Source: an uncultured Bacteroidales bacterium (GTDB lineage Bacteria; Bacteroidota; Bacteroidia; Bacteroidales; UBA7960). Taken from it: a stretch of 64,000 nt of DNA. The stretch spans positions 9,534 to 73,533 of the forward strand of contig CAZRNU010000001.1 in NCBI GenBank assembly GCA_964601515.1, given 5' to 3'. The notes beneath the pieces were generated by a model that searched no databases, was not told the DNA's origin, and worked only from the letters and a program-made list of their open reading frames with translations. Shown piece by piece: positions 2,795-21,874 of the stretch. Made by a program: the position numbers and the translations under genes. Position 1 is the stretch's first letter. Each line of letters opens with the position of its first letter.

Positions 2795-5700
2795 ATGAAG
2801 CAATCAAATTTACCAAACAAAACCAAGATTAAAATGTTAGAAAAAAAATTACTTTTTGGAAAAAGCAAACTAATATCATTAATTATAATGCTCTTAGTTT
2901 GTGCATCAACAAATCTTTATTCACAAACTACAAGAATTGAGTTTGCTGAAAGCAAGAGTTTGCTTGAAGTTAAGTCAAATACAATTACTTCGACCAGAGT
3001 TAATTATGTGTTTGATGGACTAAATGTGCTGGATGTTAAATCAGACAAGGGGACCTTTACTGAGCTTATTATGCCCGAAGGTTATAGTATTGGAAACATT
3101 GGTACTCCCAAGCTTCCCGCTGCAAAAAATCTTATCGAGATTCCATTCGGAGCAGAAGTAACAGTTAAGATTTTGAGCTACACTACTGAGGAGTATAAGC
3201 TTAAAGACTTAGGAATAGTTAATATGTTGATGCCTGTTCAGCCTTCAATTCGCAAGGACCAGGATATTGACAAGATTAAATTTGAATTTGAAAAGGATGT
3301 TTATTTAAAAAACACTTTTATTCAACCTGAAATTGCAACGGTTGAGATATTAGGTGTTTTAAGAGATATGAGATTGGCAAGGCTCACAGTGGCGCCAGTT
3401 TCTTACAATCCTGTAGAAGGAGTTATTAGAGTTGTTAATAATATTGATTTAGAAATTGTTTACACTAACTCTGATGTGGCGTTAACCAATTATATTAAGG
3501 CATCTACATATTCTCCATATTTTGATATAATTAAAAGAACGGTTATAAATCCGATATCAAATAGAGGAGCATTCGAAGATCATCCTGATTTGACAAAAAA
3601 TCCTATAAAGATGCTGATAGTGTCTCACAGAGACTTTGAAGCAACACTTTCTTCATTCATTGAATGGAAAACACAGCAAGGAATTTTTGTAACAGTGGCA
3701 TATACAGATGTTATCGGAACAACAGCCAATGCAGTGAAAACATACATACAAGGCGTTTATAACGAAGCCACTCCGGAAAACCCTGCTCCTTCTTTTGTAG
3801 TAATAGTGGGTGATCCTGGGAAAGTTCCAGCTTCAGCAACCGGAAGTTCTTCAGGACAAGTAACAGACCTTTACTATGCAAGTATAGATGGAGATATGTT
3901 TCCTGATATATATTATGGTAGGCTTTCTGCGAGAAATACGGGAGAGCTTCAAAACCAATTAGACAAAATTTTGTATTATCAAAAATATGAATTTACGGAT
4001 CCAACTTATCTTAATGATGTAACTCTTATTGCCGGATCAGATAGTTATTGGAACCCTGCCGTTGGTCAGCCAACAGTTCATTATGGGACTCAGAACTATT
4101 TTAATACTGCACATGGATTTACAAATGTTAATGCATACTTAAGTACATACACAGGATGCTACGATAATGCAAGAATTTCAGTTGGTTTTATCAATTTTAC
4201 GGCTCATTGTTCGCCAACAAGCTGGGCAGGGCCAACTCTTACAGTGTCAGATGTTCACGCTATGACAAATACAGGTAAATATCCATTAGCTGTTGGTAAC
4301 TGCTGCCAGAGTGGCATGTTTAGTCAGGCTGAATGCATAGGTGAGGCTTGGGTTAGGGCTCAGAATAAAGGTGGAGTTGCATATATTGGTTCCGCACCTA
4401 ATACATATTGGTTTGAAGATTTTTATTGGTCGGTTGGGGCTTTCCCAATTTCAGGCAATAATAATGGATATGTACCAACTGTAGCGGAAACTTCTTTGGG
4501 AGCTTATGATGCACCCTATGCTTCTGAATATTTTTCAGTAGATGCACTAAAATTTGTTGGGAATCTTGCTGTTACTGAAGCACATCTGCAAAGTTATGCG
4601 ACACATTCAAGCCCTTTATATTATTGGCAAGCATACCAAACATTCGGAGACCCTTCCACGGTTATATATTTAACTGAAGGAGAGGAAAATACTGTATCGC
4701 ATATGCCTATACTACCTATTGGTATGGAGTTTTATACTGTAAATGCACTTCCCGGTTCATATGTTGGTATTTCAAAGGATGGAGTTCTTCACGGGGCCTC
4801 ATTTGTTGGGGAATCAGGAGAAGTTAATGTTCCTATTACACCGGTTTTGGATGGGGGAGATGTGATGATTGTTGTAACAAAACCACAACATATACCATAT
4901 ATTCAACTTATACCTGCTGCTGCTTTGGAAGGACCGTTTATTGTAATAGATTCATTTGTTGTAAATGATGATGAAGGAAATAACAATGGACTTATTGACT
5001 ACAATGAAACAATAAAGTTGGACGTAACTGTTAAGAATGTTGGGGCAGATGATGGAATTGGTATTACAGGTACAATTATAGTAGATGATCTTTATTTTAC
5101 TTTGTCAGGAAATAACACTGCCGATTTTGGAAATGTTAATGCAGGAGAAGACAATACAGCAACTGTTTTAAATGCATTTACAATTATTGTTGCAAATAAT
5201 GTCCCGGATCAATATAAAGCATCGTTTGACCTTGCCCTTACTGATGGCGAAAATGATTGGGTTTCAAAAATTAATCTTACTGCTAATGCTCCAAATTTAG
5301 TGTTTCAGACAGTTGTTGTTGATGATGAAGGAGAAGGAATTCCCGGAGTATTAGACCCGGGTGAAACGGCTGACATTGTAGTTACAATTAAAAATACAGG
5401 AGCATCATCAACACTAGACATTGAAGCTATAGCAGAGACCATCAGTCCTTGGGTTACTATAAATACAACGGATGTGGTTGAGCTTACTCAATTGGCTCCG
5501 GGCGAATCTGCTGATGCAATTTTTAATGTTACAGCTTCTATAGATACACCGCTAGAGCAGCCTGTAGAATTTGATTTTACGGCAGCAACCGGTGAGTATG
5601 TGTTTGAAGATACAAAAACTATAATTGTAGGATTAATACCTGTTTATATAATGGGACAAACTGCTACTGTCGAGGCTTGTATTGGGAAATTCTATGATAC

Positions 5701-8311
5701 AGGTGGTCCTTCGGGAGAGTATGGTAATAGCCAAAACATTATTATGACTTTTTATCCTGCTCAACTAGGACGAGTGTTAGAGTTCGAATTTACAAGTTTT
5801 GCGGTGGAAAATCATACATCTTGTAATTATGATTTTCTAAAAATTTATAACGGAGAAAGCACATCAGCTCCTTTGATTGGGACTTACTGCGGCACTAATT
5901 CGCCCGGTACATTCTTAGCCACTAATGATGCAGGAGCAATAACATTCCATTTTTCTTCTGATGGTTCTGTAACTGCAGCAGGATGGGAAGCATTATTTAG
6001 ATGTGTTAATATTAGCGAACCACCTGTTTGCGCTCAAAACCCAATTCCTGCTGATGGAGCTAATAATATTGCTCTTCTTCAGGATGGAAAACTAAGATGG
6101 GGTAGCGTACCTGCTGCTTTTTCTTATGATGTTTATATTGGAGTGAATACATTGCCTGCTGAAGTTACTGCTAATGTGGCAACAAATTCTTACGATTTCG
6201 TTATAAGTCCAAACACAGATTACGTTTGGAAAGTCGTTGCGAAAAATTCGGCTGGTGAAGCTATTGATTGTCCTACATGGACATTCTCTACCGGTGATTT
6301 ACCTGATATTGTAAATATGCAAAATGGAAGTATGGCAACGTGCAATGCATTGTTTTACGATTCTGGGGGGCCTTCCTCAAGTTATAACAATAGTGAGAGT
6401 TTTGTTTATACATTTTTGCCAAACAAGGATAATTATTTTATAAAAACTGAATTTTTAAGTTTTGATGTTGAAGCTAATACTACTTGCGCTTGGGATTATT
6501 TAGAAATTTTTAATGGTCCAAACACAAGTTCGCCTCTAATTGGAAAGTATTGTGGAACAAATTCTCCGGGGGTTGTTATTGCCGATAACACGCAAGGAGC
6601 ATTAACATTCAGATTTGTTTCTGATGGTTCTGTTGTAAAACCCGGTTGGTCTGCAGTTGTTTCATGCGAAACTAATGCTTTAGAGGTTATTGAAGTAATT
6701 GCTTTAAGCGATATTCAGGTATTCATTGGAACTGAGATTGACAATATCAATTTACCTGAACATGTAGTTGTTAAGCTTTCTGATGAATCTTATGCAGATG
6801 TTCCTGTAATATGGGATGGAGGAACTCCTGCTTATGATGGTAATGTAACTGATACTTATGTTTTTGAAGGAGCTCTTGTTGAAACCCCTGAGGTTATCAA
6901 TCCATCAAACTTCATAGCAACAATAAATGTTGTTGTATTCGACTCTGAAAAACAACTTGCATCTTCCGAGACTCTTGAAAACATATCAGCGTTCTATGGT
7001 ACTACTTTAGGTCAGTTAGAATTACCAACCGAAGTAATGGTAACAACTGACGATGACTATTCATTATATCTCGAAGTAGTATGGGACGAAGGTACTCCTG
7101 AATATAATGGAACTACTCTTGATTCTTATTTGTTTGAAGGAGAAATCCAACTTATCCCGGGCTTCCTAAACGATGAGGATATTAAAGCATATGTAACAGT
7201 AATAGTTGTAAATAAAAACATTACCTCAGTTGCCGGATTTGCACCTATAGGAGTGAATTATAACACAGCATTGATAGACTTGAATCTTCCGGCAGATGTT
7301 TTGGTTACACTGGAAGATGCAACAACTGTAACTTTGGATATTGACTGGGATAATGGCACTCCGGCTTATGATGGAAGTGTTCCGGGAGTGTATGAGTTTG
7401 AGGGCTCACTAGAGTTGATAGACGGCTTATCGAATTTAAGCGAATTGCATGCATATATTACTGTAACAGTAAATTTCATATCAGCCACAATAAGTCCTGA
7501 TGAGATAGATATGTATCTTAACTGGCCAAACGAAGACAAGGAGATAGAGATTTTATGGCATGATGCAGTAAGTTTATCGGGCTTTAAATTCCAGGATGGC
7601 GAAGAATGGACAGACGTTCCATCGGAGTGGTATGAATTAGAAGATCATGGAGATGGAACAGCCACTCTAACCATATTTGCATCAGAGATTGACATGAATA
7701 AAGCAGATCATAATGTATCTGATGATAATCCATGGAGAATAGAATTTAATATGGGCAATCATGCATATGGCAATACAAACATGATTGTAAAAACCTTCAC
7801 TGTTACTTTCGTTGTGAAAGATGAAGACAGTAATGTAATTACAGGTGCTTCAGTTGAATTTGACACTTATGATGGCAATGACAATGCAGGAGAAATATGG
7901 AGTGGAAGTGGATTAGTATATGAAGTATGGGCAAGTGGAGATTATGAATATACAGTATCAGCCGAAGGCTTCAAGCCAGCCAGTGACATTATTTCATCAG
8001 TTGTTGAAGATCTTACAATAAATGTAGTTTTAGAAGATGAAACAATTGGAATTACTGAAATTGACAGTAATGTTAAAATCTATCCAAATCCGTCTAGAGG
8101 AGTATTTAATGTTGAAATATTTGATATTTCAGGGCAGATTGAGCTAATAGTAGTAAATTACCAAGGACAACTTGTTCAGACTCAAACTATTGAGAGCAAT
8201 GGTTTAGGCAGCAGATACAAACTTAATCTGCAACACTTGTCAAAAGGTATTTATTATCTGAAAATACAATCAGGAAGTAATACAATAATAAGAAAGATTG
8301 TTATACAATAA
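2795..8311 (+). CDS. giant T9SS-secreted peptidase, family C25 (gingipain-like), with CARDB-like, CUB-like, FN3-like and Big_4-like modules
   Basis: 1838-aa ORF with a signal-like segment (LISLIIMLLVCASTNLYSQ). Gingipain-type catalytic contexts are FINFTAHCSPTSW (His) and AVGNCCQSGMF (Cys). There are two CUB-like modules (nt ~5678-6004 and 6341-6667) and three ~90-aa W-D-x-G-T-P-x-Y-[DN]-G repeats. The T9SS type-A C-terminal domain reads KIYPNPSRGVFNV...GIYYLKIQ. The true start could be the Met at 2834. Confidence 0.85.
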   Translation: MKQSNLPNKTKIKMLEKKLLFGKSKLISLIIMLLVCASTNLYSQTTRIEFAESKSLLEVKSNTITSTRVNYVFDGLNVLDVKSDKGTFTELIMPEGYSIGNIGTPKLPAAKNLIEIPFGAEVTVKILSYTTEEYKLKDLGIVNMLMPVQPSIRKDQDIDKIKFEFEKDVYLKNTFIQPEIATVEILGVLRDMRLARLTVAPVSYNPVEGVIRVVNNIDLEIVYTNSDVALTNYIKASTYSPYFDIIKRTVINPISNRGAFEDHPDLTKNPIKMLIVSHRDFEATLSSFIEWKTQQGIFVTVAYTDVIGTTANAVKTYIQGVYNEATPENPAPSFVVIVGDPGKVPASATGSSSGQVTDLYYASIDGDMFPDIYYGRLSARNTGELQNQLDKILYYQKYEFTDPTYLNDVTLIAGSDSYWNPAVGQPTVHYGTQNYFNTAHGFTNVNAYLSTYTGCYDNARISVGFINFTAHCSPTSWAGPTLTVSDVHAMTNTGKYPLAVGNCCQSGMFSQAECIGEAWVRAQNKGGVAYIGSAPNTYWFEDFYWSVGAFPISGNNNGYVPTVAETSLGAYDAPYASEYFSVDALKFVGNLAVTEAHLQSYATHSSPLYYWQAYQTFGDPSTVIYLTEGEENTVSHMPILPIGMEFYTVNALPGSYVGISKDGVLHGASFVGESGEVNVPITPVLDGGDVMIVVTKPQHIPYIQLIPAAALEGPFIVIDSFVVNDDEGNNNGLIDYNETIKLDVTVKNVGADDGIGITGTIIVDDLYFTLSGNNTADFGNVNAGEDNTATVLNAFTIIVANNVPDQYKASFDLALTDGENDWVSKINLTANAPNLVFQTVVVDDEGEGIPGVLDPGETADIVVTIKNTGASSTLDIEAIAETISPWVTINTTDVVELTQLAPGESADAIFNVTASIDTPLEQPVEFDFTAATGEYVFEDTKTIIVGLIPVYIMGQTATVEACIGKFYDTGGPSGEYGNSQNIIMTFYPAQLGRVLEFEFTSFAVENHTSCNYDFLKIYNGESTSAPLIGTYCGTNSPGTFLATNDAGAITFHFSSDGSVTAAGWEALFRCVNISEPPVCAQNPIPADGANNIALLQDGKLRWGSVPAAFSYDVYIGVNTLPAEVTANVATNSYDFVISPNTDYVWKVVAKNSAGEAIDCPTWTFSTGDLPDIVNMQNGSMATCNALFYDSGGPSSSYNNSESFVYTFLPNKDNYFIKTEFLSFDVEANTTCAWDYLEIFNGPNTSSPLIGKYCGTNSPGVVIADNTQGALTFRFVSDGSVVKPGWSAVVSCETNALEVIEVIALSDIQVFIGTEIDNINLPEHVVVKLSDESYADVPVIWDGGTPAYDGNVTDTYVFEGALVETPEVINPSNFIATINVVVFDSEKQLASSETLENISAFYGTTLGQLELPTEVMVTTDDDYSLYLEVVWDEGTPEYNGTTLDSYLFEGEIQLIPGFLNDEDIKAYVTVIVVNKNITSVAGFAPIGVNYNTALIDLNLPADVLVTLEDATTVTLDIDWDNGTPAYDGSVPGVYEFEGSLELIDGLSNLSELHAYITVTVNFISATISPDEIDMYLNWPNEDKEIEILWHDAVSLSGFKFQDGEEWTDVPSEWYELEDHGDGTATLTIFASEIDMNKADHNVSDDNPWRIEFNMGNHAYGNTNMIVKTFTVTFVVKDEDSNVITGASVEFDTYDGNDNAGEIWSGSGLVYEVWASGDYEYTVSAEGFKPASDIISSVVEDLTINVVLEDETIGITEIDSNVKIYPNPSRGVFNVEIFDISGQIELIVVNYQGQLVQTQTIESNGLGSRYKLNLQHLSKGIYYLKIQSGSNTIIRKIVIQ
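6894..8094 (+). repeat. copy 1 of a 1201-bp perfect direct repeat (inside C25 gene 1)
   Basis: Compared by eye, block by block, with 12385-13585 (offset 5491) and found no mismatch. Flanking bases differ on both sides (g/a on the left, t/a on the right). Confidence 0.9.
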
Positions 8312-8330
8312 GAGATAAAAGCATAAGCAT

Positions 8331-8359
8331 GAAGGTCGAAAATTATTTTTTCGACCTTC
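8331..8359 (+). terminator. hairpin between the two C25 genes (weak terminator or processing site)
   Basis: GAAGGTCGA (8331-8339) pairs with TCGACCTTC (8351-8359) as a 9-bp stem. It lies 20 nt after the stop codon, and no strong T-run follows. Confidence 0.35.
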
Positions 8360-8399
8360 TGTTGCTTGTATTAACCAAACATTAACCAAATTATTTAAA

Positions 8400-11300
8400 A
8401 TGAAAAAACTATTCTTAACAATTGTATTAATGGCATCGATTATTGTCGTTAATGCTCAAACAAATTGGGTTGGAATTAGCAGTTCAAAGAAAAAAGCCGC
8501 TGAAACAAACCTTGTAAAAAGTGATATTCAAAGTAGTCAGGTTAAATTTTCTCTTGAAGGCTTTGTTGAATCAATGGTTTCAACTCCAAAAGGAATTGAG
8601 AAAACATTAAGCTTATATGATGGTGTGCAAATTATGGAGAAGGGGGCGCCAGATTTAGGTAAGGAGTTCTTTTCAATAATTATTCCCGACACTGATGAAA
8701 TGGCAATTAAAATTGTTAATTCTCAATTTGTTGATTATAAGGGAATTGATATTGCTCCTTCAAAAGGACATTTATACAGAAATGTAAACCCTGAAGATGT
8801 GCCATTTGAATATAGTGATGTCTATTCAAAAGATGCTTTTTGGCCGGGCAACATTGCGCAGCTTGAAGACCCTTTTATTATGCGTGATGTAAGAGGTCAA
8901 ACAGTTACAATTTTTCCTTTTCAATATAATGCTGTAACAAAAACTCTTCGTGTTTATTATGATATTGAACTTGAAATATATAGCACCGGAAACATAGGGA
9001 AAAATACTCTTTCCAGACGTGATAATGTTGTTAAAATCGACCCGGAATTCAATCATATTTATAACAGAATGTTTCTTAACAATAAATCATTTGATAAAAG
9101 CTTTACTATTATCGAGGAAGAAGGAAGCATGCTGATTATTTGTTTTGATGATTATATGAATGCAATGAAACCTTTCGTTGATTGGAAAAGAACCATTGGA
9201 AGAAAAACAACGATAGTTCCTAAGTCAACCGCCGGGACTACCGCTGCCGCAATTAAAACCTTCGTAACGAATTATTATAATGAAAATGATGACTTTACAT
9301 ATCTGCTTATAGTTGGTGATGCTCCTCAAATTCCTACAAACAGCACAAGCTGGGGACATTCTGATAATGCTTATGGTTTTATAGTTGGAGCTGATCAATA
9401 TAATGAGATTATTGTTGGACGTTTTTCTGCTGAAAGTGTTGCCCAAGTTCAAACTCAGGTTCAAAGAATGATACATTATGAAAGAGATATCACAGCTGCG
9501 GATACTTGGTTAAATGTTGGCATGGGTGTAGCCAGAAATGAAGGCGCCGGAAATGGTCATAATGGCGGAGAAGCTGATTATGTTCATGCCGATTTTATAA
9601 GAGATACTTTACTAAATTATACATATTCTGCAGTTCATAGGGAATATGACGGAAATGTACCCGGACTTCCTAATACTACAGCCTCAAGTATTTCTTCGAA
9701 AATTAACAGTGGTGTTTCTATAATTAATTATATTAATCACGGCTCAGACACCGGATGGAGCGTTGCTGATTATAACTCAAGCCATGTAAATGCTCTTACT
9801 AATATTGGGAAACTACCTTTTATTTGGGCTGTTGCTTGTGTGAATGGAAACTTTAATTCTATAACATGTTTTGCGGAAGCATGGATGAGAGCTACACATA
9901 ATGGTGAGCCTACCGGTGCAATTGGAACTTTGATGTCTACAATAAATCAGGCATGGCAACCTCCTATGACAGGTCAGGATGAAATGGTTACTATTCTTGC
10001 TGAAAAAAGAGGTCACATCAAAAGAACTTATGGTGGCCTTTCTATTAATGGAAGTATGGTAATGATTGCTGCTCACGGTGCTTCAGGTACTGAAACACAT
10101 GTTACTTGGAACCTTTTCGGAGATCCTTCTCTAATGGTTAGAACAGATGTACCTCAAGTTATTTCAGCATCCTACAATCCGGTTATTTTGCTGGGATTAA
10201 GCACATTTCAAGTAAATGTTGATAATGCGGAAGGTGCAGTTGTTTCTATTACAAGGCGTAATGAAGATACTCAGGAAGTTGTTATTTTAGGAACTGCTGT
10301 TGTTAATGGCGGTACAGCTCTGGTTGAATTTGTTGAACCAATAGAATCTCCTGGTGTTGCTACATTGGCAATTACTGCTTACAACAAAGTAACGTACATT
10401 AATGATGAACTTGGAATTATTCCTCCGGAAGGTCCTTATGTGGTTTTCAAAAGCCTTACAATAGACGACTCTGCAGAAAATAATAACGGATTGGCTGATT
10501 ACAGCGAAACAGTTTTACTTAATGTAACCTTAGAAAATGTTGGAGTTGAAAATGCTGAAAACATAACAGCTACTTTAACTTCTGAAAACGAATATGTCAA
10601 TATTATTGATGGTAATAGCGCTTGGGGTGATATTGAAGCCGGCGAATTGTCACTGTTGGACGCTGCTTTTACAGTTTCTTTTGCTGATAATACCCCTGAT
10701 CAAGAGAGAGTAAGATTTACAATTGAAATGACCGACGGAAATGAAGTTTGGGAATCTACTTTTAATATTACTGTTAATGCTCCTGTTTTAGTTTTTCAGG
10801 GATTAGTAATTGATGATGGTGGTATGGGTATTCCGGGAATTCTTGACCCGGGCGAAACTGCTGATATAATTACAAATGTTAAAAATATCGGACATGCAAC
10901 AAGTTTGGAAATTATAGTTACTCTTGATACTGAAAGTCCTTGGGTAACGGTTAATACTCTTGAAGCTGTTGAATTAGGCTCTTTGGCTCCAGGAGAAGCT
11001 GCTGAAGCCAATTTTAATGTTACAGCTTTAGAAGAAACCCCTATTGAACAAGCAGTTGAATTATTATATACTGCTGCAACAGGGGAGTATACATTTGAAG
11101 ACTCAAAACAAATTGTGATAGGTCTTATTCCTGTTTATCTGATGGGACAGTCTGCTACAGTTACTGCTCCTATTGGACGTTTTTACGATACAGGCGGCCC
11201 AACAGCAAACTATTCAAACAATGAAAACATCATTATGACATTCTACCCTATGAATCCGGGCTCGGTTCTTGAGTTTGAGTTTTTACATTTTGATGTTGAA

Positions 11301-13802
11301 GCCAATGCCACTTGTGCTTGGGATTACCTGAAAATATACAACGGAACAAGTACAACAGCGCCTCTAATTGGTACATATTGTGGTACTAACTCTCCGGGTA
11401 CATTTATGGCAACAAATGACGACGGTGCTATTACTTTCCATTTTTACTCAGATGGAATTATCGCAAACTCCGGATGGGAAGCTATTTTTAGAGCAGTGAA
11501 TATTAGCGAACCTCCTGATTGTGCAGAAACTCCAAACCCTGCTAATGGTGCTTCAAATATTGTGATTTTACCCGGCGGAAAAGTAAGTTGGGCGCATACA
11601 TCCGGCTCTTTCGGATATGACGTGTATTTTGGCGAGAATGAATTGCCTGCTGAGGTTACAGAAACAGTTGATGTAAATAACTTTGCTGTTGAAATTAATT
11701 CCAATAGTGATTATTCTTGGAAAGTTGTTCCTTATAACAGTGCAGGGCATGCAGATGGTTGTCCAACTTGGAACTTCTCAACCGGCGAAATGCCTGATAT
11801 TGTTAATATGTCTAATGGTAGCAAAACAACTTGTAATGCTATTTTCTATGATTCAGGTGGCCCTGATGCTAATTATAACAATAACGAAGAATTCACATTT
11901 ACTTTCTTCCCCGGTGTTGAAAATGCAAATGTAATTGTAGAGTTTTTAAGTTTTGATGTAGAGTTTAATGCCACGTGTGCATGGGATTGGCTTAAAATAT
12001 ATAACGGTCCTAATATTAGTTCGCCGCTTTTAGGTACCTTCTGCGGAACAACTTCGCCAGGTACTATAACTGCTGACAATGAACAGGGAGCTCTAACATT
12101 CCAATTTAAAGCTGATATTACCGTTACTAGACCAGGATGGGAAGCTCTTGTTTCTTGTGATATTACAGAAGTTGAGATAGTTTCTGTAAATGAAATTAGC
12201 GATATTCAAGTATTTATTGGAACCACAATAGATAATGTTCCTCTTCCTGATAAGGTTAAGGTTTCATTAGCAGATGAAACGGAAGCTGAACTAACTGTAG
12301 TTTGGGATAGTGGTACTCCTTCTTATGATGGTGGCGTCACTGGATTATATGTGTTTGAAGGTGAAATTGAAATTGAAGGCAACATTATCAATCCATCAAA
12401 CTTCATAGCAACAATAAATGTTGTTGTATTCGACTCTGAAAAACAACTTGCATCTTCCGAGACTCTTGAAAACATATCAGCGTTCTATGGTACTACTTTA
12501 GGTCAGTTAGAATTACCAACCGAAGTAATGGTAACAACTGACGATGACTATTCATTATATCTCGAAGTAGTATGGGACGAAGGTACTCCTGAATATAATG
12601 GAACTACTCTTGATTCTTATTTGTTTGAAGGAGAAATCCAACTTATCCCGGGCTTCCTAAACGATGAGGATATTAAAGCATATGTAACAGTAATAGTTGT
12701 AAATAAAAACATTACCTCAGTTGCCGGATTTGCACCTATAGGAGTGAATTATAACACAGCATTGATAGACTTGAATCTTCCGGCAGATGTTTTGGTTACA
12801 CTGGAAGATGCAACAACTGTAACTTTGGATATTGACTGGGATAATGGCACTCCGGCTTATGATGGAAGTGTTCCGGGAGTGTATGAGTTTGAGGGCTCAC
12901 TAGAGTTGATAGACGGCTTATCGAATTTAAGCGAATTGCATGCATATATTACTGTAACAGTAAATTTCATATCAGCCACAATAAGTCCTGATGAGATAGA
13001 TATGTATCTTAACTGGCCAAACGAAGACAAGGAGATAGAGATTTTATGGCATGATGCAGTAAGTTTATCGGGCTTTAAATTCCAGGATGGCGAAGAATGG
13101 ACAGACGTTCCATCGGAGTGGTATGAATTAGAAGATCATGGAGATGGAACAGCCACTCTAACCATATTTGCATCAGAGATTGACATGAATAAAGCAGATC
13201 ATAATGTATCTGATGATAATCCATGGAGAATAGAATTTAATATGGGCAATCATGCATATGGCAATACAAACATGATTGTAAAAACCTTCACTGTTACTTT
13301 CGTTGTGAAAGATGAAGACAGTAATGTAATTACAGGTGCTTCAGTTGAATTTGACACTTATGATGGCAATGACAATGCAGGAGAAATATGGAGTGGAAGT
13401 GGATTAGTATATGAAGTATGGGCAAGTGGAGATTATGAATATACAGTATCAGCCGAAGGCTTCAAGCCAGCCAGTGACATTATTTCATCAGTTGTTGAAG
13501 ATCTTACAATAAATGTAGTTTTAGAAGATGAAACAATTGGAATTACTGAAATTGACAGTAATGTTAAAATCTATCCAAATCCGTCAACGGGTTTGTTTAA
13601 TATAGAATTTAATGGAATAAAGGGTATTGTAAATATGACAATACTAAACTATCAAGGACAGGTTGTACTATCTCAAACCTTTAACAGTGATGGAGCAGGA
13701 GTGAGCCAAAAATTGAATCTGGGTGAATTTGCAAAAGGCATTTATTATGTCAGAATTCAATCGGGTGATATAATTAAGGTTGAAAAATTGATTCTTCAGT
13801 AA
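8400..13802 (+). CDS. giant T9SS-secreted peptidase, family C25 (gingipain-like), paralog of the upstream gene
   Basis: 1800-aa ORF with a signal peptide (MKKLFLTIVLMASIIVVNAQ) and a gingipain propeptide-like N-terminal region. Catalytic contexts are INYINHGSDTGW (His) and FIWAVACVNGNF (Cys). The downstream module order matches gene 1, including CUB-like modules (~11164-11490 and 11832-12158). The T9SS C-terminal domain reads KIYPNPSTGLFNI...GIYYVRIQ. Confidence 0.9.
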   Translation: MKKLFLTIVLMASIIVVNAQTNWVGISSSKKKAAETNLVKSDIQSSQVKFSLEGFVESMVSTPKGIEKTLSLYDGVQIMEKGAPDLGKEFFSIIIPDTDEMAIKIVNSQFVDYKGIDIAPSKGHLYRNVNPEDVPFEYSDVYSKDAFWPGNIAQLEDPFIMRDVRGQTVTIFPFQYNAVTKTLRVYYDIELEIYSTGNIGKNTLSRRDNVVKIDPEFNHIYNRMFLNNKSFDKSFTIIEEEGSMLIICFDDYMNAMKPFVDWKRTIGRKTTIVPKSTAGTTAAAIKTFVTNYYNENDDFTYLLIVGDAPQIPTNSTSWGHSDNAYGFIVGADQYNEIIVGRFSAESVAQVQTQVQRMIHYERDITAADTWLNVGMGVARNEGAGNGHNGGEADYVHADFIRDTLLNYTYSAVHREYDGNVPGLPNTTASSISSKINSGVSIINYINHGSDTGWSVADYNSSHVNALTNIGKLPFIWAVACVNGNFNSITCFAEAWMRATHNGEPTGAIGTLMSTINQAWQPPMTGQDEMVTILAEKRGHIKRTYGGLSINGSMVMIAAHGASGTETHVTWNLFGDPSLMVRTDVPQVISASYNPVILLGLSTFQVNVDNAEGAVVSITRRNEDTQEVVILGTAVVNGGTALVEFVEPIESPGVATLAITAYNKVTYINDELGIIPPEGPYVVFKSLTIDDSAENNNGLADYSETVLLNVTLENVGVENAENITATLTSENEYVNIIDGNSAWGDIEAGELSLLDAAFTVSFADNTPDQERVRFTIEMTDGNEVWESTFNITVNAPVLVFQGLVIDDGGMGIPGILDPGETADIITNVKNIGHATSLEIIVTLDTESPWVTVNTLEAVELGSLAPGEAAEANFNVTALEETPIEQAVELLYTAATGEYTFEDSKQIVIGLIPVYLMGQSATVTAPIGRFYDTGGPTANYSNNENIIMTFYPMNPGSVLEFEFLHFDVEANATCAWDYLKIYNGTSTTAPLIGTYCGTNSPGTFMATNDDGAITFHFYSDGIIANSGWEAIFRAVNISEPPDCAETPNPANGASNIVILPGGKVSWAHTSGSFGYDVYFGENELPAEVTETVDVNNFAVEINSNSDYSWKVVPYNSAGHADGCPTWNFSTGEMPDIVNMSNGSKTTCNAIFYDSGGPDANYNNNEEFTFTFFPGVENANVIVEFLSFDVEFNATCAWDWLKIYNGPNISSPLLGTFCGTTSPGTITADNEQGALTFQFKADITVTRPGWEALVSCDITEVEIVSVNEISDIQVFIGTTIDNVPLPDKVKVSLADETEAELTVVWDSGTPSYDGGVTGLYVFEGEIEIEGNIINPSNFIATINVVVFDSEKQLASSETLENISAFYGTTLGQLELPTEVMVTTDDDYSLYLEVVWDEGTPEYNGTTLDSYLFEGEIQLIPGFLNDEDIKAYVTVIVVNKNITSVAGFAPIGVNYNTALIDLNLPADVLVTLEDATTVTLDIDWDNGTPAYDGSVPGVYEFEGSLELIDGLSNLSELHAYITVTVNFISATISPDEIDMYLNWPNEDKEIEILWHDAVSLSGFKFQDGEEWTDVPSEWYELEDHGDGTATLTIFASEIDMNKADHNVSDDNPWRIEFNMGNHAYGNTNMIVKTFTVTFVVKDEDSNVITGASVEFDTYDGNDNAGEIWSGSGLVYEVWASGDYEYTVSAEGFKPASDIISSVVEDLTINVVLEDETIGITEIDSNVKIYPNPSTGLFNIEFNGIKGIVNMTILNYQGQVVLSQTFNSDGAGVSQKLNLGEFAKGIYYVRIQSGDIIKVEKLILQ
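12385..13585 (+). repeat. copy 2 of the 1201-bp perfect direct repeat (inside C25 gene 2)
   Basis: Identical to 6894-8094. It encodes the same 400 aa in the same frame (INPSNFIATINVV...KIYPNPS). Confidence 0.9.
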
Positions 13803-16435: not shown

Positions 16436-17386
16436 TTATTTCAACTCCATTAGTTTGTAGCCAAGCTCATATCCTTCAGAAAATATTACAATGTTGTAAT
16501 ATCCTTTAGTGAATTTGTCATTTTGGCTGTAAATCATGCAAATATCTTGAGCATTGTTTTGGAAATTAACGGTTCTCTGGACAGAGAAAGATAATTCATC
16601 ACCCTGATAGTTGAATGTATCGTCAGGGAAAGCAGTAAGTACTTTGTTGCCCGGATCAATAATTCTAACGTAGAAATCACGGTTGCCTGGAGTAGCAACG
16701 AGGTTTTGATTAATAGTAAAGCATACTTGAACTTTGCTGGTTTTTTTAGCTTTATTTGTTGGTTCGTCACCTTTACGTTTTACGCGCACTCCATTAGCTT
16801 CTATGCTGGAAATAGAAAGAATTGATGCTTTTTTTAGCTGTTCTTCAATTTCTCTTTTCTCTCTTTCAAGTTGCGAATTGCGTGCAGTTGTTTGGTTCAG
16901 CGAATTCTGAATTTGAGACTTTTCTCCTGCCAACATTTGATTTTCACTTTTTAGAGATTCAGCTTCTTCTTGATATCCCGCAAGAAGTCTTTCAAGTTCA
17001 TCTATTTTTGCTTGTAATGAAGGATCTCCAACACCACCTGTTCCATGAAGTTGTGTTCTAAGTCTGGCAATTTTTGTTCTTTCTGAGCCAAGATCTTTTT
17101 CCATATCGGTAAATTCAAGGCTGAGTTTTTGGAATTCTGCTTCAAGAGCGTCAAGTTGCTTAAGAAGCTCATCTCTTTCTTTTGCTATTAGCTGATTTTG
17201 TTTTTTTGCGTTTTCTGCTTCATGGCGAACTTCTAAAACTTCACGTAATAACAACCCTCCGCCTACTGCAAGAATAAGGGCAAATATTGACAAAAAGATT
17301 ATTGCGCCAACACCTTTAGTTTTTTGCTTATTTGGTGATTGGTTAGGTGTGGCAGTTGTTGTAGCTGGTTTGTTTACTTTTTCCAT
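16436..17386 (-). CDS. single-pass membrane coiled-coil protein with conserved C-terminal beta-rich domain (unknown function), paralog B
   Basis: 316-aa ORF. It has a polar N-terminus, one TM (GAIIFLSIFALILAVGGGLLL) and ~150 aa of heptad-rich E/K/Q/L sequence. The C-terminal domain contains KVQVCFTINQNLVATPGNRDFYVRIIDPGNKVL. Confidence 0.7.
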   Translation of the reverse strand: MEKVNKPATTTATPNQSPNKQKTKGVGAIIFLSIFALILAVGGGLLLREVLEVRHEAENAKKQNQLIAKERDELLKQLDALEAEFQKLSLEFTDMEKDLGSERTKIARLRTQLHGTGGVGDPSLQAKIDELERLLAGYQEEAESLKSENQMLAGEKSQIQNSLNQTTARNSQLEREKREIEEQLKKASILSISSIEANGVRVKRKGDEPTNKAKKTSKVQVCFTINQNLVATPGNRDFYVRIIDPGNKVLTAFPDDTFNYQGDELSFSVQRTVNFQNNAQDICMIYSQNDKFTKGYYNIVIFSEGYELGYKLMELK

Positions 17387-17414: not shown

Positions 17415-18353
17415 TTAATTCAAAGTTAAGGATGTTTCTCCCATAAGGGCATCATCTGTGAAAATTGAAATTAAATACTGACCGGGATCAAAATCTTTGT
17501 TTTTATCCCATGTCAGGCACATATCAATGTTTTTATTGTTGTAATCAAAATGACTTTTTATAGAATATTGAAGAGTATCTTCTCTGAAAATAAAAGAATA
17601 AGAATCATCATCACTTATTCTTAGTATTTCAGTATTTGGAGCAGCTATGCGCATATAAACATTTTTTCTTCCGGGTTGAGTTATTGGATTTTCCGCAATC
17701 ATAAAGCAAACTTTAATTTTCTCAACTCTTTTGGCTTTATCTGTTTCTCTTTCAGTATTTCTGAATCCTGCTGTTCGTGTGCCAATAGCAGACATCTGAA
17801 ATGCTCTTAATCCGGCTGCAATTTCAACTTTTTCCTCAAGTTGCTGCTTTGTTTGAGTTAAAGCTTCAGTTTGTTTCACAACAGTACGAATTTCATCCTG
17901 CATTCTAACATTCTCGGCTTTTAAAACTTTATTTTCTGTATGCAAGCTGTCAATTTCGCGAACATAATTTTGAGTTATATCCCTTAACAAATCAAGTTGT
18001 CTTCTAATTCTATGGTAGTCTGCTTGCTGAGCAATAAGTTTATTGATCTCCTTTGCCTTTTCCTGAATAATTTGATCTTTATCATATAATACGCTGTCAT
18101 ATTCTAATTTTACGGCAGTATATTCAAATATCATTGAATCGAGCTCATTTTTGAGCTGTAAGTTTTCTTCTTGTGATAATGTTTTCTCTGTAGATGTAGT
18201 CTCTAGTGATTGCCTTGTTTCAATCAGCATATAAGTTAGCACTCCTATTATTAATAGCATTACAATTGATGCCCATTGAAAAAGTATTAATTTGTTTTTC
18301 ATTTCTTGATTTGTGCTTTCCATTCCTGAATTTGTATTCACTCTATCTTCCAT
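17415..18353 (-). CDS. single-pass membrane coiled-coil protein with conserved C-terminal beta-rich domain (unknown function), paralog A
   Basis: 312-aa ORF with the same architecture as its neighbour. The TM is LILFQWASIVMLLIIGVLTYMLI. The C-terminal KIKVCFMIAENPITQPGRKNVYMRIAAPNTEIL aligns with the neighbour. Confidence 0.7.
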   Translation of the reverse strand: MEDRVNTNSGMESTNQEMKNKLILFQWASIVMLLIIGVLTYMLIETRQSLETTSTEKTLSQEENLQLKNELDSMIFEYTAVKLEYDSVLYDKDQIIQEKAKEINKLIAQQADYHRIRRQLDLLRDITQNYVREIDSLHTENKVLKAENVRMQDEIRTVVKQTEALTQTKQQLEEKVEIAAGLRAFQMSAIGTRTAGFRNTERETDKAKRVEKIKVCFMIAENPITQPGRKNVYMRIAAPNTEILRISDDDSYSFIFREDTLQYSIKSHFDYNNKNIDMCLTWDKNKDFDPGQYLISIFTDDALMGETSLTLN

Positions 18354-19258: not shown

Positions 19259-21874
19259 TTACAATCGGCTGGCCAACACTGCAGTTTTTTTGTAGTGCTT
19301 TACATTGCCTTTCGTATCGAAAATTTCAACATGAATTATGTATATTCCAATGTAGGCCTTCTGATTATCATCTGTTGTACCGTCCCATGTGATTACTCCT
19401 TTTGTTGCAAGTAAATAGCTTCTTGTTAGTGTTCTTACGGTTCTTCCCTTAGTGTCAAAAACTGTTATATTTGCAACAAATCCCGGCTCAGGAAACTCAT
19501 AAGCAATATTTAACACATCGTTATGACCTGTATTGTCGGGGGAAAATATCTCCGGATATACAACAATTGGGTCTTCTTGTGTGGCAATGTTGTTTGTAAA
19601 TTGCGAATTCTTAAGCCCCGGTGTTCCAAAGCCAAAACCTTCGGATGCAGAATGCCAGTTAAAAACATCGTTTGATGGTCTGTCGGGGTTAAGCCTTTCA
19701 AGGGCTATCCCTTTTTTATCGGTCAGCAAAGGAAGATGCATACCATCAGTATATACAAGCTGATCTATGATTTTCATGCTTATATGCGATAGAACTACAA
19801 TTCCACTAGTTGTTGTCATGCTAGACATTGTACCTGTTTGGATAAATGTATACTTGTCATGAAATGGATATGTGTTTATTACACTTTCAATGTCAGTTGT
19901 AATTACAGCGTATTCCTGAGGAAATAATAAATAACTGCTTTGGCTAATTTCCTGTATGCTTGTAAGGATGTTTGCAATTGTATCTCTGGAGCTTACTCTG
20001 TATTTGGATAGGTCTATTACTTTTTGAGATCTGTTATATAGTTCAATATAACGAGAAACACCTGTTGGAGCATTAAATAGCAACTCATTTATTACTATAT
20101 CCAAACTATCTGCTATCACAGGAATTGCAACATTTGCATTTTGCTTACCTATAAGATTTCCTGCACAGTCGGCTAATGTGCTTGCTACTGTTACATTATA
20201 TATTGTTCCATTTTGTAATGGAGATGAAAGAATTAACCTAACTGACTGGAAGTCCGGAGAAACAGGGTTTACTTCTGCCGGATTACCTATTCCATTATCG
20301 ATTTCATAATAATTTTTCGAAGCTAAAGTTGCCTCGTCCATAGGTTCACTAAAAAACAATGTAATATTATAAGCATCGTCAAAACCTGCCCTAAGGAGTT
20401 CGGGTTGTGTTGTATCAGAATTGTTCGCGTTTACTGAATTAACCTCTCCCGGAGTTCCTCCTTTTGGAGAAATAGAAGCCTTCCAATTGTTTTTACCTCC
20501 ACAATAGTTATAGGGGTCTATTTGTTCAATCGACCAACCTCCGTCGTCTTTTGAAGTGTCGTTATACCATTTATCTGTATATGAGATTGTATGGATTATT
20601 TCTCCATTTAAATCGTTTAATATAAGCGTTCTTCCGGTGCTTGTAAGAAAATTGACGCCAAGCTCTGCTCCAATTACATTATTTATGGAGCTGAAAAAAG
20701 GCAGGTCTGCTGAATTTACTAAAGTCAAATAGCCTTTGGGAGGTATCAGGCCAAAAGGCAAATCTTTAACCGGGTCTGAGCCTGATTTAAACGTCCAGCC
20801 TTCAATATTGATTTGGTAATTACTGGTGTTGTATAGTTCTATATATTTATATGCAGGCAAATCAACAGCAGGAGAAGGTTTAGGCATTATCTCATTAAAT
20901 ACAACATCATATTTTTGAGGATAGTATAATGAGAAATCACCGGAAAAATCGTTCATTACATTTCCAAAAACATCCTGAACATTTGATATAGAAATATTAT
21001 AAACTGATTGAGGAACAAATTCTTGAGAAAATATTAACCTTGCAATATATGGCTTATTGTCAAGTCTCTCTGCAATTGAAGGCGCGCCAATTCCATTATT
21101 TACAAAATAGTTTGTGGGAATTTCAGCAGTAACTTCATCAATTGCTTTGCTGAAATGAATTTCCAGTGTTGTTGAATTTATTGGAACTAAGTACTTTACA
21201 ACAGGCTTTGTAACATCCGGAACAATATCACCAACTTTTATGTCGTCGAAATAGAATCTATTGATATTGCTTACTGTATAAACGCATTTAACTCCAAAAA
21301 AAGAAGTTGCATTGTATGTATTGTCAGTAACACTGCCTTGTGGAAGAAAAAGATCAGAGCCACTGGGGTCTGCGTAAAAATCCCATTTTCCGTTCAAATC
21401 TCTGGTTACTCTAACCCGAATAACATTATTACTTGTGGCTGCAATATTTGTTGAGCCTTGTAATAATTGCTCTACAGTTTCTCCGTCTTGCCTAAAAAAG
21501 TAAAGCCTTTTATTATCAGTGCCGGTTTTCCCAATTCTAACATAGTACCCGTTTAGTCCTTCATTTAGGTTATTGCTGTTTGACGCTAAATAAATAAGCG
21601 GATAATTATTGTCGGACGGTTCAAAAGTAATTCTTACCCAGAAATCCCATTGGGTATTTATTATTGATTCTGATGCACGAACAAGATATGATGTGCCCGC
21701 GTCCATGGCATTTAATCGGAGAATTTCATCTTCAACACGGAAACTCGCTCTGTCTCCTACCCATGCAGGATCTAAAGCTCCTGAACTAAAATTATCCGAA
21801 AATTGTGCGTTTAATATTGCATTTTGGCTCAGTAAAAACAAGGCCAGAAAAAAAACTCTTTTCATGATGAACAT
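19259..21874 (-). CDS. secreted lamin-tail-domain (LTD) protein with C-terminal sorting-type domain
   Basis: 871-aa ORF with a signal peptide (FFLALFLLSQNAILNAQ). Two LTD-like modules are present (VVFNEIMPKPSP...YIELYNTS and IVINELLFNAPTG..YIELYNRS). The C-terminal FSPDNTGHNDVLNIAYEF...ITVFDTKGRTV resembles FlgD-Ig / gliding-motility C-terminal domains. Confidence 0.75.
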   Translation of the reverse strand: MFIMKRVFFLALFLLSQNAILNAQFSDNFSSGALDPAWVGDRASFRVEDEILRLNAMDAGTSYLVRASESIINTQWDFWVRITFEPSDNNYPLIYLASNSNNLNEGLNGYYVRIGKTGTDNKRLYFFRQDGETVEQLLQGSTNIAATSNNVIRVRVTRDLNGKWDFYADPSGSDLFLPQGSVTDNTYNATSFFGVKCVYTVSNINRFYFDDIKVGDIVPDVTKPVVKYLVPINSTTLEIHFSKAIDEVTAEIPTNYFVNNGIGAPSIAERLDNKPYIARLIFSQEFVPQSVYNISISNVQDVFGNVMNDFSGDFSLYYPQKYDVVFNEIMPKPSPAVDLPAYKYIELYNTSNYQINIEGWTFKSGSDPVKDLPFGLIPPKGYLTLVNSADLPFFSSINNVIGAELGVNFLTSTGRTLILNDLNGEIIHTISYTDKWYNDTSKDDGGWSIEQIDPYNYCGGKNNWKASISPKGGTPGEVNSVNANNSDTTQPELLRAGFDDAYNITLFFSEPMDEATLASKNYYEIDNGIGNPAEVNPVSPDFQSVRLILSSPLQNGTIYNVTVASTLADCAGNLIGKQNANVAIPVIADSLDIVINELLFNAPTGVSRYIELYNRSQKVIDLSKYRVSSRDTIANILTSIQEISQSSYLLFPQEYAVITTDIESVINTYPFHDKYTFIQTGTMSSMTTTSGIVVLSHISMKIIDQLVYTDGMHLPLLTDKKGIALERLNPDRPSNDVFNWHSASEGFGFGTPGLKNSQFTNNIATQEDPIVVYPEIFSPDNTGHNDVLNIAYEFPEPGFVANITVFDTKGRTVRTLTRSYLLATKGVITWDGTTDDNQKAYIGIYIIHVEIFDTKGNVKHYKKTAVLASRL

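What the first reader, a model, noticed from the sequence alone, without database searches (positions are those of the whole stretch)
6894..13585. 1201-bp, 100% identical tract shared by two otherwise diverged tandem C25 peptidase genes, with razor-sharp boundaries
Seen directly: 6894-8094 and 12385-13585 are identical at every block I compared (offset 5491), and both encode the same 400 aa in frame. Immediately upstream the paralogs drop to roughly three-quarters nucleotide identity (by eye). Immediately downstream, the last ~70 aa (the T9SS C-terminal sorting domains) are only about half identical. The N-terminal catalytic domains are barely alignable. Inference: this points to a very recent gene-conversion or recombination tract that homogenised the distal Big_4-like/adhesin-like region but stopped exactly at the start of the sorting signal. 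Alternatively it is a collapsed or chimeric assembly of a repeat. A 1.2-kb direct repeat 5.5 kb apart is also a substrate for deletion or amplification, and so for possible phase-variation-like switching of surface protease content.
Basis: partly seen in the sequence, partly recalled or inferred. Interest (0 to 1): 0.6.

Follow-up and report, generated by a model that had tools for sequence, protein, structure and literature searches.

The report
Gene-conversion island in tandem gingipain-like genes
Two neighbouring surface-protease genes of an uncultured Bacteroidota bacterium, one Kgp-like and one Rgp-like, keep a 1.2-kb stretch of their tails identical by repeatedly copying it from one gene to the other; this is a clean but ordinary case of gene conversion that mirrors what is known for the gingipain genes of Porphyromonas gingivalis.

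Summary
Window 6894-8094 and 12385-13585 are identical at all 1201 bases and in the same codon phase. They lie inside two tandem C25 peptidase genes (2795-8311 and 8400-13802). The flanks at the same offset are about 63% identical and saturated at synonymous sites.

The two-copy structure is not an assembly artefact. An independent k=31 read-graph assembly branches exactly at three of the four junctions. A relative with about 86% nucleotide identity, assembled separately, carries both genes with the same tract. There the copies are 98% identical (a perfect 824-bp core, 24 differences at the edges).

Four-sequence site patterns switch from orthology outside the tract to paralogue grouping inside it (190 sites against 2). 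Conversion therefore occurred in both lineages after they split, within boundaries that match to 0-6 nt.

More distant syntenic relatives have the gene pair but share no C-terminal sequence. An older gene-1-to-gene-2 transfer of about 3.1 kb made the shared tail, and the tract is its still-active remnant.

The closest precedent is P. gingivalis rgpA/kgp/hagA. I rate it a new member of a known kind, of modest interest. Perfect interior identity and deletion-based switching remain untested.

The parts
2795..8311 (+). Gene 1: a 1838-aa T9SS-secreted C25 cysteine peptidase with a Kgp-like catalytic domain. Architecture: propeptide, C25 domain, C25 C-terminal Ig domain, CARDB-like region, 2 CUB, 3 Big_4, an unassigned ~100-aa region, a CarboxypepD_reg-like domain, and a type A sorting domain.
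   Evidence: Pfam. TIGR04183. PDB match to Lys-gingipain 4tkx/4rbm, E 5e-112, with the AH..GNCC His/Cys motifs aligned.
8400..13802 (+). Gene 2: a 1800-aa T9SS-secreted C25 cysteine peptidase with an RgpB-like catalytic domain. Its C-terminal architecture matches that of gene 1.
   Evidence: Pfam. TIGR04183. PDB match to gingipain R 1cvr, E 5e-100, with the HG..ACVNG motifs aligned.
6894..8094 (+). Conversion tract, copy 1 (gene 1 codons 1367-1767). It covers the last strand of Big_4 unit 1, Big_4 units 2 and 3, the unassigned ~100-aa region, the CarboxypepD_reg-like domain, a linker, and the first motif (KIYPNPS) of the sorting domain.
   Evidence: Exact identity with 12385-13585. Domain content.
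12385..13585 (+). Conversion tract, copy 2 (gene 2 codons 1329-1729).
   Evidence: Logan contigs L014 and L013 overlap its first and last 30 nt exactly.
5195..8311 (+). Older zone of gene-1/gene-2 homology, gene 1 side. It is collinear with 10686-13802 at offset 5491 with no indel, at about 63% nucleotide identity outside the tract. It is the remnant of an earlier transfer of a gene-1-type C-terminal extension into gene 2. The left limit is approximate (5160-5290).
   Evidence: Identity profile at constant offset. W2 switches from gene-2-type to gene-1-type affinity at about aa 750-790 when compared with the syntenic outgroups L006/L007.
10686..13802 (+). Older zone of homology, gene 2 side. 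This is the recipient of the earlier transfer.
8078..8308 (+). T9SS type A sorting domain of gene 1. It is diverged from that of gene 2 (dN 0.46, dS saturated) but conserved with its orthologue (dN 0.047).
13569..13799 (+). T9SS type A sorting domain of gene 2. It is conserved with its orthologue (dN 0.015).
8331..8359 (+). A 12-bp-stem hairpin 20 nt after the gene 1 stop codon. It is terminator-like, although the T run lies within the stem rather than after it. It suggests the two genes are transcribed separately.
   Evidence: This is a consensus scan only; function is not shown.

Best explanation
The tract is an island of ongoing interlocus gene conversion (partial concerted evolution) between two tandem, anciently diverged gingipain-type peptidase genes.

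History (inferred from comparisons). A Kgp-like and an Rgp-like C25 gene have long sat side by side between an FtsX-type permease gene and pheT. In the ancestor of this genome (W) and its relative (R), about 3.1 kb encoding the gene-1 C-terminal extension was copied into gene 2. That shared region then diverged to saturation, except for 1.2 kb. In that 1.2 kb, non-reciprocal homologous recombination between the two copies keeps resetting them to identity.

Why the edges are sharp and shared by both lineages (inferred). The flanks are about 63% identical and have no identical run longer than 17 nt. That is below the roughly 25-nt minimum that RecA-type recombination needs (E. coli figure, recalled from memory). 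Strand exchange starting in the tract therefore cannot extend past these 'homology cliffs'. Each event ends at or before the same nucleotides.

In W the latest event or events covered the whole island. In R the latest event covered only an 824-bp core, and the edges have begun to erode.

Consequence (inferred). If the sorting domain is removed during secretion, as in P. gingivalis, the two enzymes would carry different catalytic heads on an identical ~390-residue C-terminal stalk. Their cleaved sorting signals stay distinct.
For: 1. Exact 1201-nt identity with flanks saturated at synonymous sites (dS > 1).

2. A relative at about 86% nucleotide identity, contiguous contig L004, has both genes. 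Informative sites outside the tract support (w1,r1)(w2,r2) almost exclusively. Across the ten 40-codon windows from w1 codon 1366 to 1765, 190 sites support (w1,w2)(r1,r2) against 2.

3. r1 and r2 differ at 24 tract sites, all at the edges. The core, 7151-7974 in window coordinates, is identical. The left boundary is at the same nucleotide as in W and the right boundary is within 6 nt.

4. Divergence between W and R in the tract (dS 0.74) is at or slightly above the level of neighbouring genes (0.28-0.69). Within-genome divergence is below 0.012 in W and 0.054 in R. Conversion therefore post-dates the split in both lineages.

5. The independent read-graph assembly (Logan, k=31) of run SRR5581382 gives contig L014, which equals window 8065-12414. 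Contig L013 starts at 13556. Both overlap the tract ends by exactly k-1 = 30 nt.

6. The short-read MAG of R breaks inside both copies, as expected of a near-exact repeat.

7. More distant syntenic loci, L006 and L007, have the pair with about 26% amino-acid identity and no nucleotide similarity. W2 is orthologous to their gene 2 only up to about aa 790 and is gene-1-like thereafter.

8. The tract has no foreign composition (GC 0.37-0.38, GC3 0.26 against 0.20-0.25) and no embedded element or long alternative ORF.
Against: No reads were available. The perfect identity of the tract interior in W could be partly produced by an assembler that walks one collapsed graph node twice and pops small bubbles. 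The junction evidence proves only that the terminal 30 nt are shared.

Only one related lineage carries the tract: one homologue among 5.8 billion proteins. 'Recurrent' therefore rests on two lineages.

The homology-cliff mechanism is inferred. Selection against conversion of the flanks would give the same picture.

Synonymous divergence between W and R is uneven within the tract (1.2-1.3 in the left half, 0.4 in the right). The simple model explains this only by assuming opposite donor choice or an older paralogue difference.
Confidence: 0.85

Rival explanations
1. Assembly artefact. The tract exists once, or its two copies differ, and the assembler duplicated or homogenised it (collapsed or chimeric repeat).
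For: The Logan k=31 graph necessarily holds the tract once. Any short-read assembly that spans it must traverse one node twice, which would make the copies identical by construction. The MAG of the relative breaks inside the tract.
Against: Three junctions are present in an independent read-based assembly: tract to CTD1, gene-2 body to tract, and tract to CTD2. The 4350-nt segment between the copies is attached to the tract at both ends. That requires at least two passes through the tract.

The relative's contiguous contig carries both copies with 24 real differences at the edges and the same boundaries. Both hybrid-free full-length genes are under purifying selection in both lineages.
Confidence: 0.04
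2. Selection, not just recombination mechanics, maintains the island. The two proteases would need an identical C-terminal stalk, for example for a shared partner, anchoring or co-assembly, while their heads and sorting domains must stay different. Only conversions confined to this segment would then survive.
For: The boundaries are conserved to 0-6 nt in two lineages. The CTDs are strongly conserved between orthologues (dN 0.015-0.047) yet very different between paralogues (dN 0.45). There is a parallel with P. gingivalis, where RgpA, Kgp and HagA share adhesin modules that associate on the cell surface (PMC5266723).
Against: The edge erosion seen in the relative (19 differences in the left 260 nt) is what neutral decay of a conversion island predicts. 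dN/dS of the tract between species (0.11-0.12) is no lower than that of the unconverted middle region (0.11). More distant relatives do without any shared tail. No functional data exist.
Confidence: 0.2
3. The repeat serves as a switch. Recombination between the direct repeats deletes or amplifies the 5491-bp unit. The deletion product is an in-frame hybrid (gene-1 head and stalk with the gene-2 sorting domain), changing surface protease content in a phase-variation-like way.
For: The copies are direct, in the same codon phase and 5.5 kb apart. Spontaneous in-frame deletions by homologous recombination remove kgp at the tandem hagA-kgp locus of P. gingivalis (PMC9328147).
Against: No deletion or amplification variant was found. 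The one metagenome contig, the MAG and the Logan graph all contain the inter-copy segment. Such events are an unavoidable by-product of any direct repeat and need not be functional.
Confidence: 0.07
4. The tract is a module acquired from outside, by horizontal transfer or from a third gene, and inserted separately into both genes.
For: The tract protein has almost no homologues in public data. Its right edge lies at the widely conserved YPNP motif of sorting domains.
Against: There is no third copy in the window and no donor in the searched collections. Composition matches the flanks. Both genes are collinear without indels across the whole 3.1-kb zone. The pattern recurs independently in the relative.
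Confidence: 0.03

Closest known systems
Porphyromonas gingivalis rgpA / kgp / hagA shared adhesin-domain repeats (PMC5266723; PMC9328147)
   Same: Both involve T9SS-secreted C25 (gingipain) genes with different catalytic heads. Here the heads are a Kgp-like one and an Rgp-like one. The genes share identical blocks in their non-catalytic C-terminal regions. The blocks break short-read assemblies. The tandem arrangement resembles hagA-kgp. The blocks are attributed to homologous recombination or gene conversion and are substrates for in-frame deletion.
   Different: The shared modules here are Big_4, an unassigned domain and a CarboxypepD_reg-like domain, not Cleaved_Adhesin/DUF2436. In P. gingivalis the 3' ends of hagA and kgp are reported to be virtually identical. 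Here the sorting domains are excluded and strongly diverged. Only two copies are present, and no strain-level domain shuffling or deletion variant was observed. The organism is an uncultured environmental Bacteroidota.
Concerted evolution of bacterial duplicate genes by gene conversion (rRNA operons, PMC6002687; tufA/tufB, from memory; M. tuberculosis PE/PPE and other paralogues, PMC13061034, PMC12046097)
   Same: Paralogues within a genome are more alike than orthologues between genomes. Exchange is by non-reciprocal patches between dispersed or tandem copies.
   Different: Here only a 1.2-kb internal segment of 5.4-kb genes is homogenised, between genes whose remaining parts are saturated. 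In rRNA and tuf the whole gene is kept alike.
Mosaic divergence of tandem paralogues under interlocus gene conversion (HMA4 of Arabidopsis halleri, PMC3749932; bioRxiv 10.1101/2025.10.29.685298)
   Same: Tandem copies have sharply bounded converted and escaped segments. Boundaries are set by divergence and/or selection.
   Different: That system is eukaryotic and meiotic, and the duplicates are much younger.
Cassette-type antigenic variation by gene conversion (Neisseria pilE/pilS; from memory)
   Same: Segmental, non-reciprocal copying occurs into a surface-protein gene.
   Different: That system uses silent donor cassettes and generates diversity. Here both partners are complete, conserved genes and the outcome is uniformity.

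Membership tests
Interlocus gene conversion / partial concerted evolution | In the segment, paralogues within a genome are more similar than orthologues between genomes. | tested here: met
   190 informative sites group (w1,w2)(r1,r2) against 2 for orthology. Identity is w1-w2 1.00 and r1-r2 0.90-1.00, against 0.62-0.93 between W and R.
Interlocus gene conversion / partial concerted evolution | Flanks on both sides keep the orthologous relationship. The exchange is a patch, not a crossover or a recent whole-gene duplication. | tested here: met
   windows outside the tract support orthology by 8-63 sites each, against 0-5 for the concerted pattern; paralogue dS > 1 on both sides.
Interlocus gene conversion / partial concerted evolution | Both copies physically exist in one genome. 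| tested here: met
   the inter-copy segment joins the tract at both ends in a read-based graph; the relative's contiguous contig has two distinguishable copies. Copy number from read depth could not be measured.
Interlocus gene conversion / partial concerted evolution | Perfect identity of the interior of the tract in this genome. | not testable with these tools
   No reads or k-mer depths are accessible.
Peptidase family C25 (gingipain-type), T9SS cargo | Peptidase_C25 and Propeptide_C25 domains score above the curated thresholds. | tested here: met
   Peptidase_C25 scores 178.9 and 185.5 bits (cut-off 23). Propeptide_C25 scores 80.6 and 119.5 bits (cut-off 22).
Peptidase family C25 (gingipain-type), T9SS cargo | Catalytic His/Cys dyad is conserved. 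| tested here: met
   alignments to Kgp (4tkx) and RgpB (1cvr) keep the H of the [AG]H[GC]S motif and the C of GNCC / ACVNG. Which residues are catalytic is taken from memory of the gingipain literature. Activity was not tested.
Peptidase family C25 (gingipain-type), T9SS cargo | Type A C-terminal sorting domain (TIGR04183 / PF18962). | tested here: met
   gldL, gldM and gldN lie just upstream of the window in contig L012.
P. gingivalis-type haemagglutinin/adhesin (Cleaved_Adhesin, DUF2436) gingipain extension | Cleaved_Adhesin (PF07675) or DUF2436 modules occur in the shared region. | tested here: not met
   the shared region has Big_4 and CarboxypepD_reg-like matches only. This is an analogue, not a member.
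Recombination-based phase variation (deletion/amplification between direct repeats) | Both arrangements coexist in a population. | not testable with these tools
   Only the two-gene arrangement was seen in the few assemblies found. No read-level data are available.

The most novel reading that the evidence does not exclude
The identity may be selected rather than incidental. An environmental Bacteroidota may have arrived, convergently with P. gingivalis, at the same design: a Kgp-type and an Rgp-type protease mounted on one common C-terminal module. The two would then co-assemble or anchor through the same partner. Gene conversion would act as the co-evolution mechanism, and the conversion boundaries would be held in place because the heads and the sorting signals must stay different.
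Probability: 0.2. Interest if true: 0.55.

Novelty: new member of a known kind. Interest (0 to 1): 0.35.

Why it matters
This is a very clean natural example of how gene conversion persists as a sharply bounded island long after the rest of two paralogues has escaped. The same boundaries are inherited in two lineages, and one lineage shows visible erosion at the edges.

It also shows that sharing a C-terminal module between a Kgp-like and an Rgp-like gingipain homologue is not peculiar to P. gingivalis, although different modules are used here.

In practice, such tracts break or mislead short-read assemblies of T9SS cargo genes. They also make tree-based orthology calls for these proteins unreliable.

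Tried and rejected
- **Exact look-ups of both full-length proteins** found nothing on record. Neighbouring genes identified the source assemblies instead.
- **Structure prediction of the 401-aa tract** from a single sequence gave mean pLDDT 36. It was too poor for a fold search and was abandoned. The ~100-aa region between Big_4 unit 3 and the CarboxypepD_reg-like domain stays unassigned.
- **Homologue search with the tract** returned only the relative's partial protein, so no alignment could be built.
- **L005**, a 2961-aa protein with 40% identity to part of the tract, is not an orthologue and was set aside.
- **Retrieving the Logan contigs for the gene-1 body and for the tract itself** failed. 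My guess for the contig after L012 was not on record.
- **The sigma-70 promoter scan** was no better than shuffles (51 found against 46 expected) and is not suited to Bacteroidota.
- **GC-biased conversion:** GC3 of the tract (0.26) is at most slightly above the flanks (0.20-0.25). This is not convincing.
- **Microhomology with other sorting-domain starts** in the window: the 20-mer at the right boundary occurs only in the two copies.
Full report
**1. The observation**

A repeat search and a base-by-base comparison at offset 5491 confirm an exact direct repeat of 1201 nt, window 6894-8094 = 12385-13585. The alignment at both edges shows identity collapsing within one or two bases.

- Over the 1.7 kb upstream, identity at the same offset is 0.55-0.71 per 100 nt. 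Downstream it is 0.57-0.60.
- The mean flank identity is 0.635 and the longest identical run in the flanks is 17 nt.
- A 1201-nt run has a chance probability near 1e-237.
- The window holds no third copy at DNA or protein level.
- The tract carries no long alternative ORF.
- Its G+C content is the same as its surroundings.

**2. The genes**

The repeat lies in two tandem genes on the + strand, 2795-8311 (1838 aa) and 8400-13802 (1800 aa).

- Both genes have Propeptide_C25, Peptidase_C25, the C25 Ig-like domain, a CARDB-like region, two CUB domains, three Big_4 units, a CarboxypepD_reg-like domain and a T9SS type A sorting domain.
- The catalytic domain of gene 1 matches Lys-gingipain Kgp (4tkx/4rbm, E 5e-112).
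- The catalytic domain of gene 2 matches Arg-gingipain RgpB (1cvr, E 5e-100).
- The His and Cys motifs are aligned in both. Which residues are catalytic is taken from my memory of the gingipain literature.
- A 12-bp-stem hairpin at 8331-8359 follows gene 1.
- The surroundings are ordinary chromosome: rbfA, a methyltransferase gene and an FtsX-type permease gene upstream, and pheT downstream. gldL-gldM-gldN lie just beyond the window start (L012).

In a codon alignment the paralogues show three tiers.

| Region (gene 1 codons) | Amino-acid identity | Synonymous divergence |
|---|---|---|
| about 1-711 | about 0.2-0.4 | saturated |
| about 812-1366, and the sorting domain | about 0.5-0.8 | saturated (pS 0.6-0.86) |
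| 1367-1767 (the tract) | identical | none |

The tract starts inside Big_4 unit 1, before its last strand. It ends after KIYPNPS, six codons into the sorting-domain model. The edges therefore do not coincide with domain borders.

**3. Is it an assembly artefact?**

Three lines of evidence say the structure is real.

(a) Neighbouring proteins of the window occur in a 74.5-kb NCBI/ENA contig and in Logan assemblies of run SRR5581382.

- Logan contigs come from a k=31 de Bruijn graph in which every 31-mer occurs once (PMC12424806).
- Logan contig L014 is exactly window 8065-12414. Its first 30 nt are the last 30 nt of the tract, and its last 30 nt are the first 30 nt of the tract.
- Contig L013 starts at 13556, 30 nt before the tract end.
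- I predicted the 4350-nt length of L014 from the repeat coordinates before fetching it.
- The read graph therefore branches at three of the four junctions exactly. The inter-copy segment is joined to the tract at both ends, which requires two passes through the tract.

(b) A related MAG ('Bacteroidetes bacterium CROMO_A_117') is syntenic at 85-89% nucleotide identity. Its contigs break inside both copies.

(c) A 126.8-kb JGI metagenome contig of the same population (L004) spans both genes without a break. It is 100% identical to two of the MAG contigs and differs by a single mismatch (99.98%) from the third.

What cannot be checked is whether the interior of the tract in this genome is truly free of differences. 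A short-read assembler that walks one node twice would make it so by construction.

**4. What the relative shows**

I aligned the four genes: w1 and w2 from the window, r1 and r2 from L004. I then counted informative sites in 40-codon windows.

- Outside the tract, nearly all informative sites group orthologues. Each window gives 8-63 sites for orthology against 0-5 for the concerted pattern.
- Across the ten windows from w1 codon 1366 to 1765, 190 sites group the paralogues of each genome against 2 for orthology.
- r1 and r2 differ at only 24 tract positions. Nineteen lie in the first 260 nt and five in the last 120 nt. The 824-nt core, 7151-7974 in window coordinates, is identical.
- The left boundary falls at the same nucleotide as in the window, and the right boundary within 6 nt.

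Synonymous divergence points the same way.

| Comparison | dS |
|---|---|
| W-R, tract | 0.74 |
| W-R, neighbouring genes | 0.28-0.69 |
| w1-w2, tract | below 0.012 (0 differences at 260 synonymous sites) |
| r1-r2, tract | 0.054 |

Identity inherited from before the split would have decayed to the between-species level. Conversion must therefore have happened after the split in both lineages. dN/dS is about 0.1 in every region of both genes, so both are maintained by purifying selection.

**5. Deeper history**

Two more distant metagenomic relatives, L006 and L007, keep the same neighbourhood: gldM-gldN ... rbfA - methyltransferase - FtsX - C25 - C25 - pheT. Gene 1 is about 58% identical to theirs in amino acids. 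Their two C25 genes share only about 26% amino-acid identity and no detectable nucleotide similarity.

- W1 is orthologous to their gene 1 through the CUB domains.
- W2 is orthologous to their gene 2 only up to about residue 750-790. From there on it resembles gene 1.
- This point matches the position, near window 5195, where nucleotide identity at offset 5491 rises from about 0.3 to about 0.63. The offset then stays constant with no indel to the end of the genes.

The simplest reading is an older copy of about 3.1 kb from gene 1 into gene 2 in the W/R ancestor, followed by divergence everywhere except the present tract.

**6. Mechanism**

Shown:

- segmental, non-reciprocal homogenisation in two lineages;
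- inherited boundaries;
- erosion from the edges in one lineage.

Inferred:

- The exchange is RecA-type homologous recombination between the direct copies.
- It cannot extend into the flanks, because these offer no identical run longer than 17 nt. The usual minimum of about 25 nt is an E. coli figure recalled from memory.
- Each event therefore stops at or before the same 'cliffs'.

Selection for an identical stalk, or against conversion of the heads and sorting domains, would produce the same pattern and cannot be separated from mechanics with these data.

If the sorting domain is cleaved off during secretion, as in P. gingivalis (PMC4560394, abstract seen), the mature proteins would end in the same ~390 residues.

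The uneven W-R divergence inside the tract is not explained by the basic model. dS is 1.2-1.3 in the left half and 0.4 in the right. Opposite donor choice in the two lineages is one possibility.

**7. Comparison with known systems**

The nearest precedent is in the same protein family. In P. gingivalis, hagA, rgpA and kgp contain identical repeats in their adhesin-encoding regions that defeat automated assembly (PMC5266723). At the tandem hagA-kgp locus, whose 3' ends are virtually identical, homologous recombination produces spontaneous in-frame deletions that remove kgp (PMC9328147).

Shared features:

- a Kgp-type and an Rgp-type head;
- a common C-terminal module;
- tandem arrangement.

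Differences:

- The module types differ. No Cleaved_Adhesin domain is present here.
- The sorting domains are excluded from the identical block here.
- No rearranged variants were observed here.

More generally this is partial concerted evolution, as known for bacterial duplicates and for tandem paralogues with mosaic divergence.

**8. Verdict**

It is extended in two ways: the conversion is recurrent and confined to an inherited island, and that island is nested in an older transfer.

I rate it a new member of a known kind, of modest interest. The switching idea and a selected function of the shared stalk remain open.

Noticed in passing
L012:1231-4766 (upstream of window position 1); also L006 and L007:1-2466: The T9SS core genes gldL, gldM and gldN lie about 2-5 kb upstream of the window start. 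The two C25 cargo genes therefore sit within about 10 kb of the secretion-system operon. This neighbourhood is conserved in more distant relatives.
   Followed up: partly
L010:8001-16254 and L011:8001-16129: In another Bacteroidales lineage, a C25 peptidase and the adjacent trypsin-like peptidase share a ~480-aa C-terminal region (CUB ... sorting domain) at 53-55% amino-acid identity. These are different catalytic classes. Transfer of C-terminal modules between neighbouring T9SS protease genes therefore seems recurrent.
   Followed up: partly
window 6893-7489 versus 7490-8095: Synonymous divergence from the relative is 1.2-1.3 in the left half of the tract but about 0.4 in the right half. The genome baseline is 0.3-0.7. 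The codon window 7370-7489 is only 62% identical between the lineages. This is unexplained.
   Followed up: partly
window 16436-17386 and 17415-18353 (- strand): Two tandem paralogous coiled-coil proteins lie downstream of pheT. Their counterparts in related loci are annotated DUF8429/DUF8428. The pair is conserved in all syntenic relatives.
   Followed up: no
window 8331-8359: A perfect 12-bp-stem hairpin (GAAGGTCGAAAA/TTTTCGACCTTC) lies 20 nt after the gene 1 stop codon. It is probably a terminator between the two peptidase genes.
   Followed up: no
window 5785-6570 and 11276-12061: There are internal 123-nt repeats spaced 663 nt apart in each gene, at 67-77% identity. They correspond to the two CUB domains.
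   Followed up: no
window 52360-55719 (- strand) and 19259-21874 (- strand): The window holds further T9SS cargo genes. One is a trypsin-like peptidase with MAM, fn3 and a type A sorting domain. The other is an LTD/Big_5 protein with a CHU_C-type sorting signal. Neither shares the tract.
   Followed up: partly
window 33023-38080 (- strand): This 1685-aa ORF has an amino-acid permease domain at the N-terminus, followed by more than 1200 residues with only a weak AAA_18 hit. This is an unusual fusion and it was not examined.
   Followed up: no
L005:17-1251 and 10979-11262: Five copies of a ~107-nt repeat flank a 2961-aa gene on a metagenome contig. That gene's product is 40% identical to part of the tract. 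The nature of the repeats is unknown.
   Followed up: no
window 2795-8311 and 8400-13802: Neither full-length peptidase is on record in the protein collection, although their neighbours on the same 74.5-kb contig are. The gene calls or the sequence of the deposited contig may differ here.
   Followed up: partly
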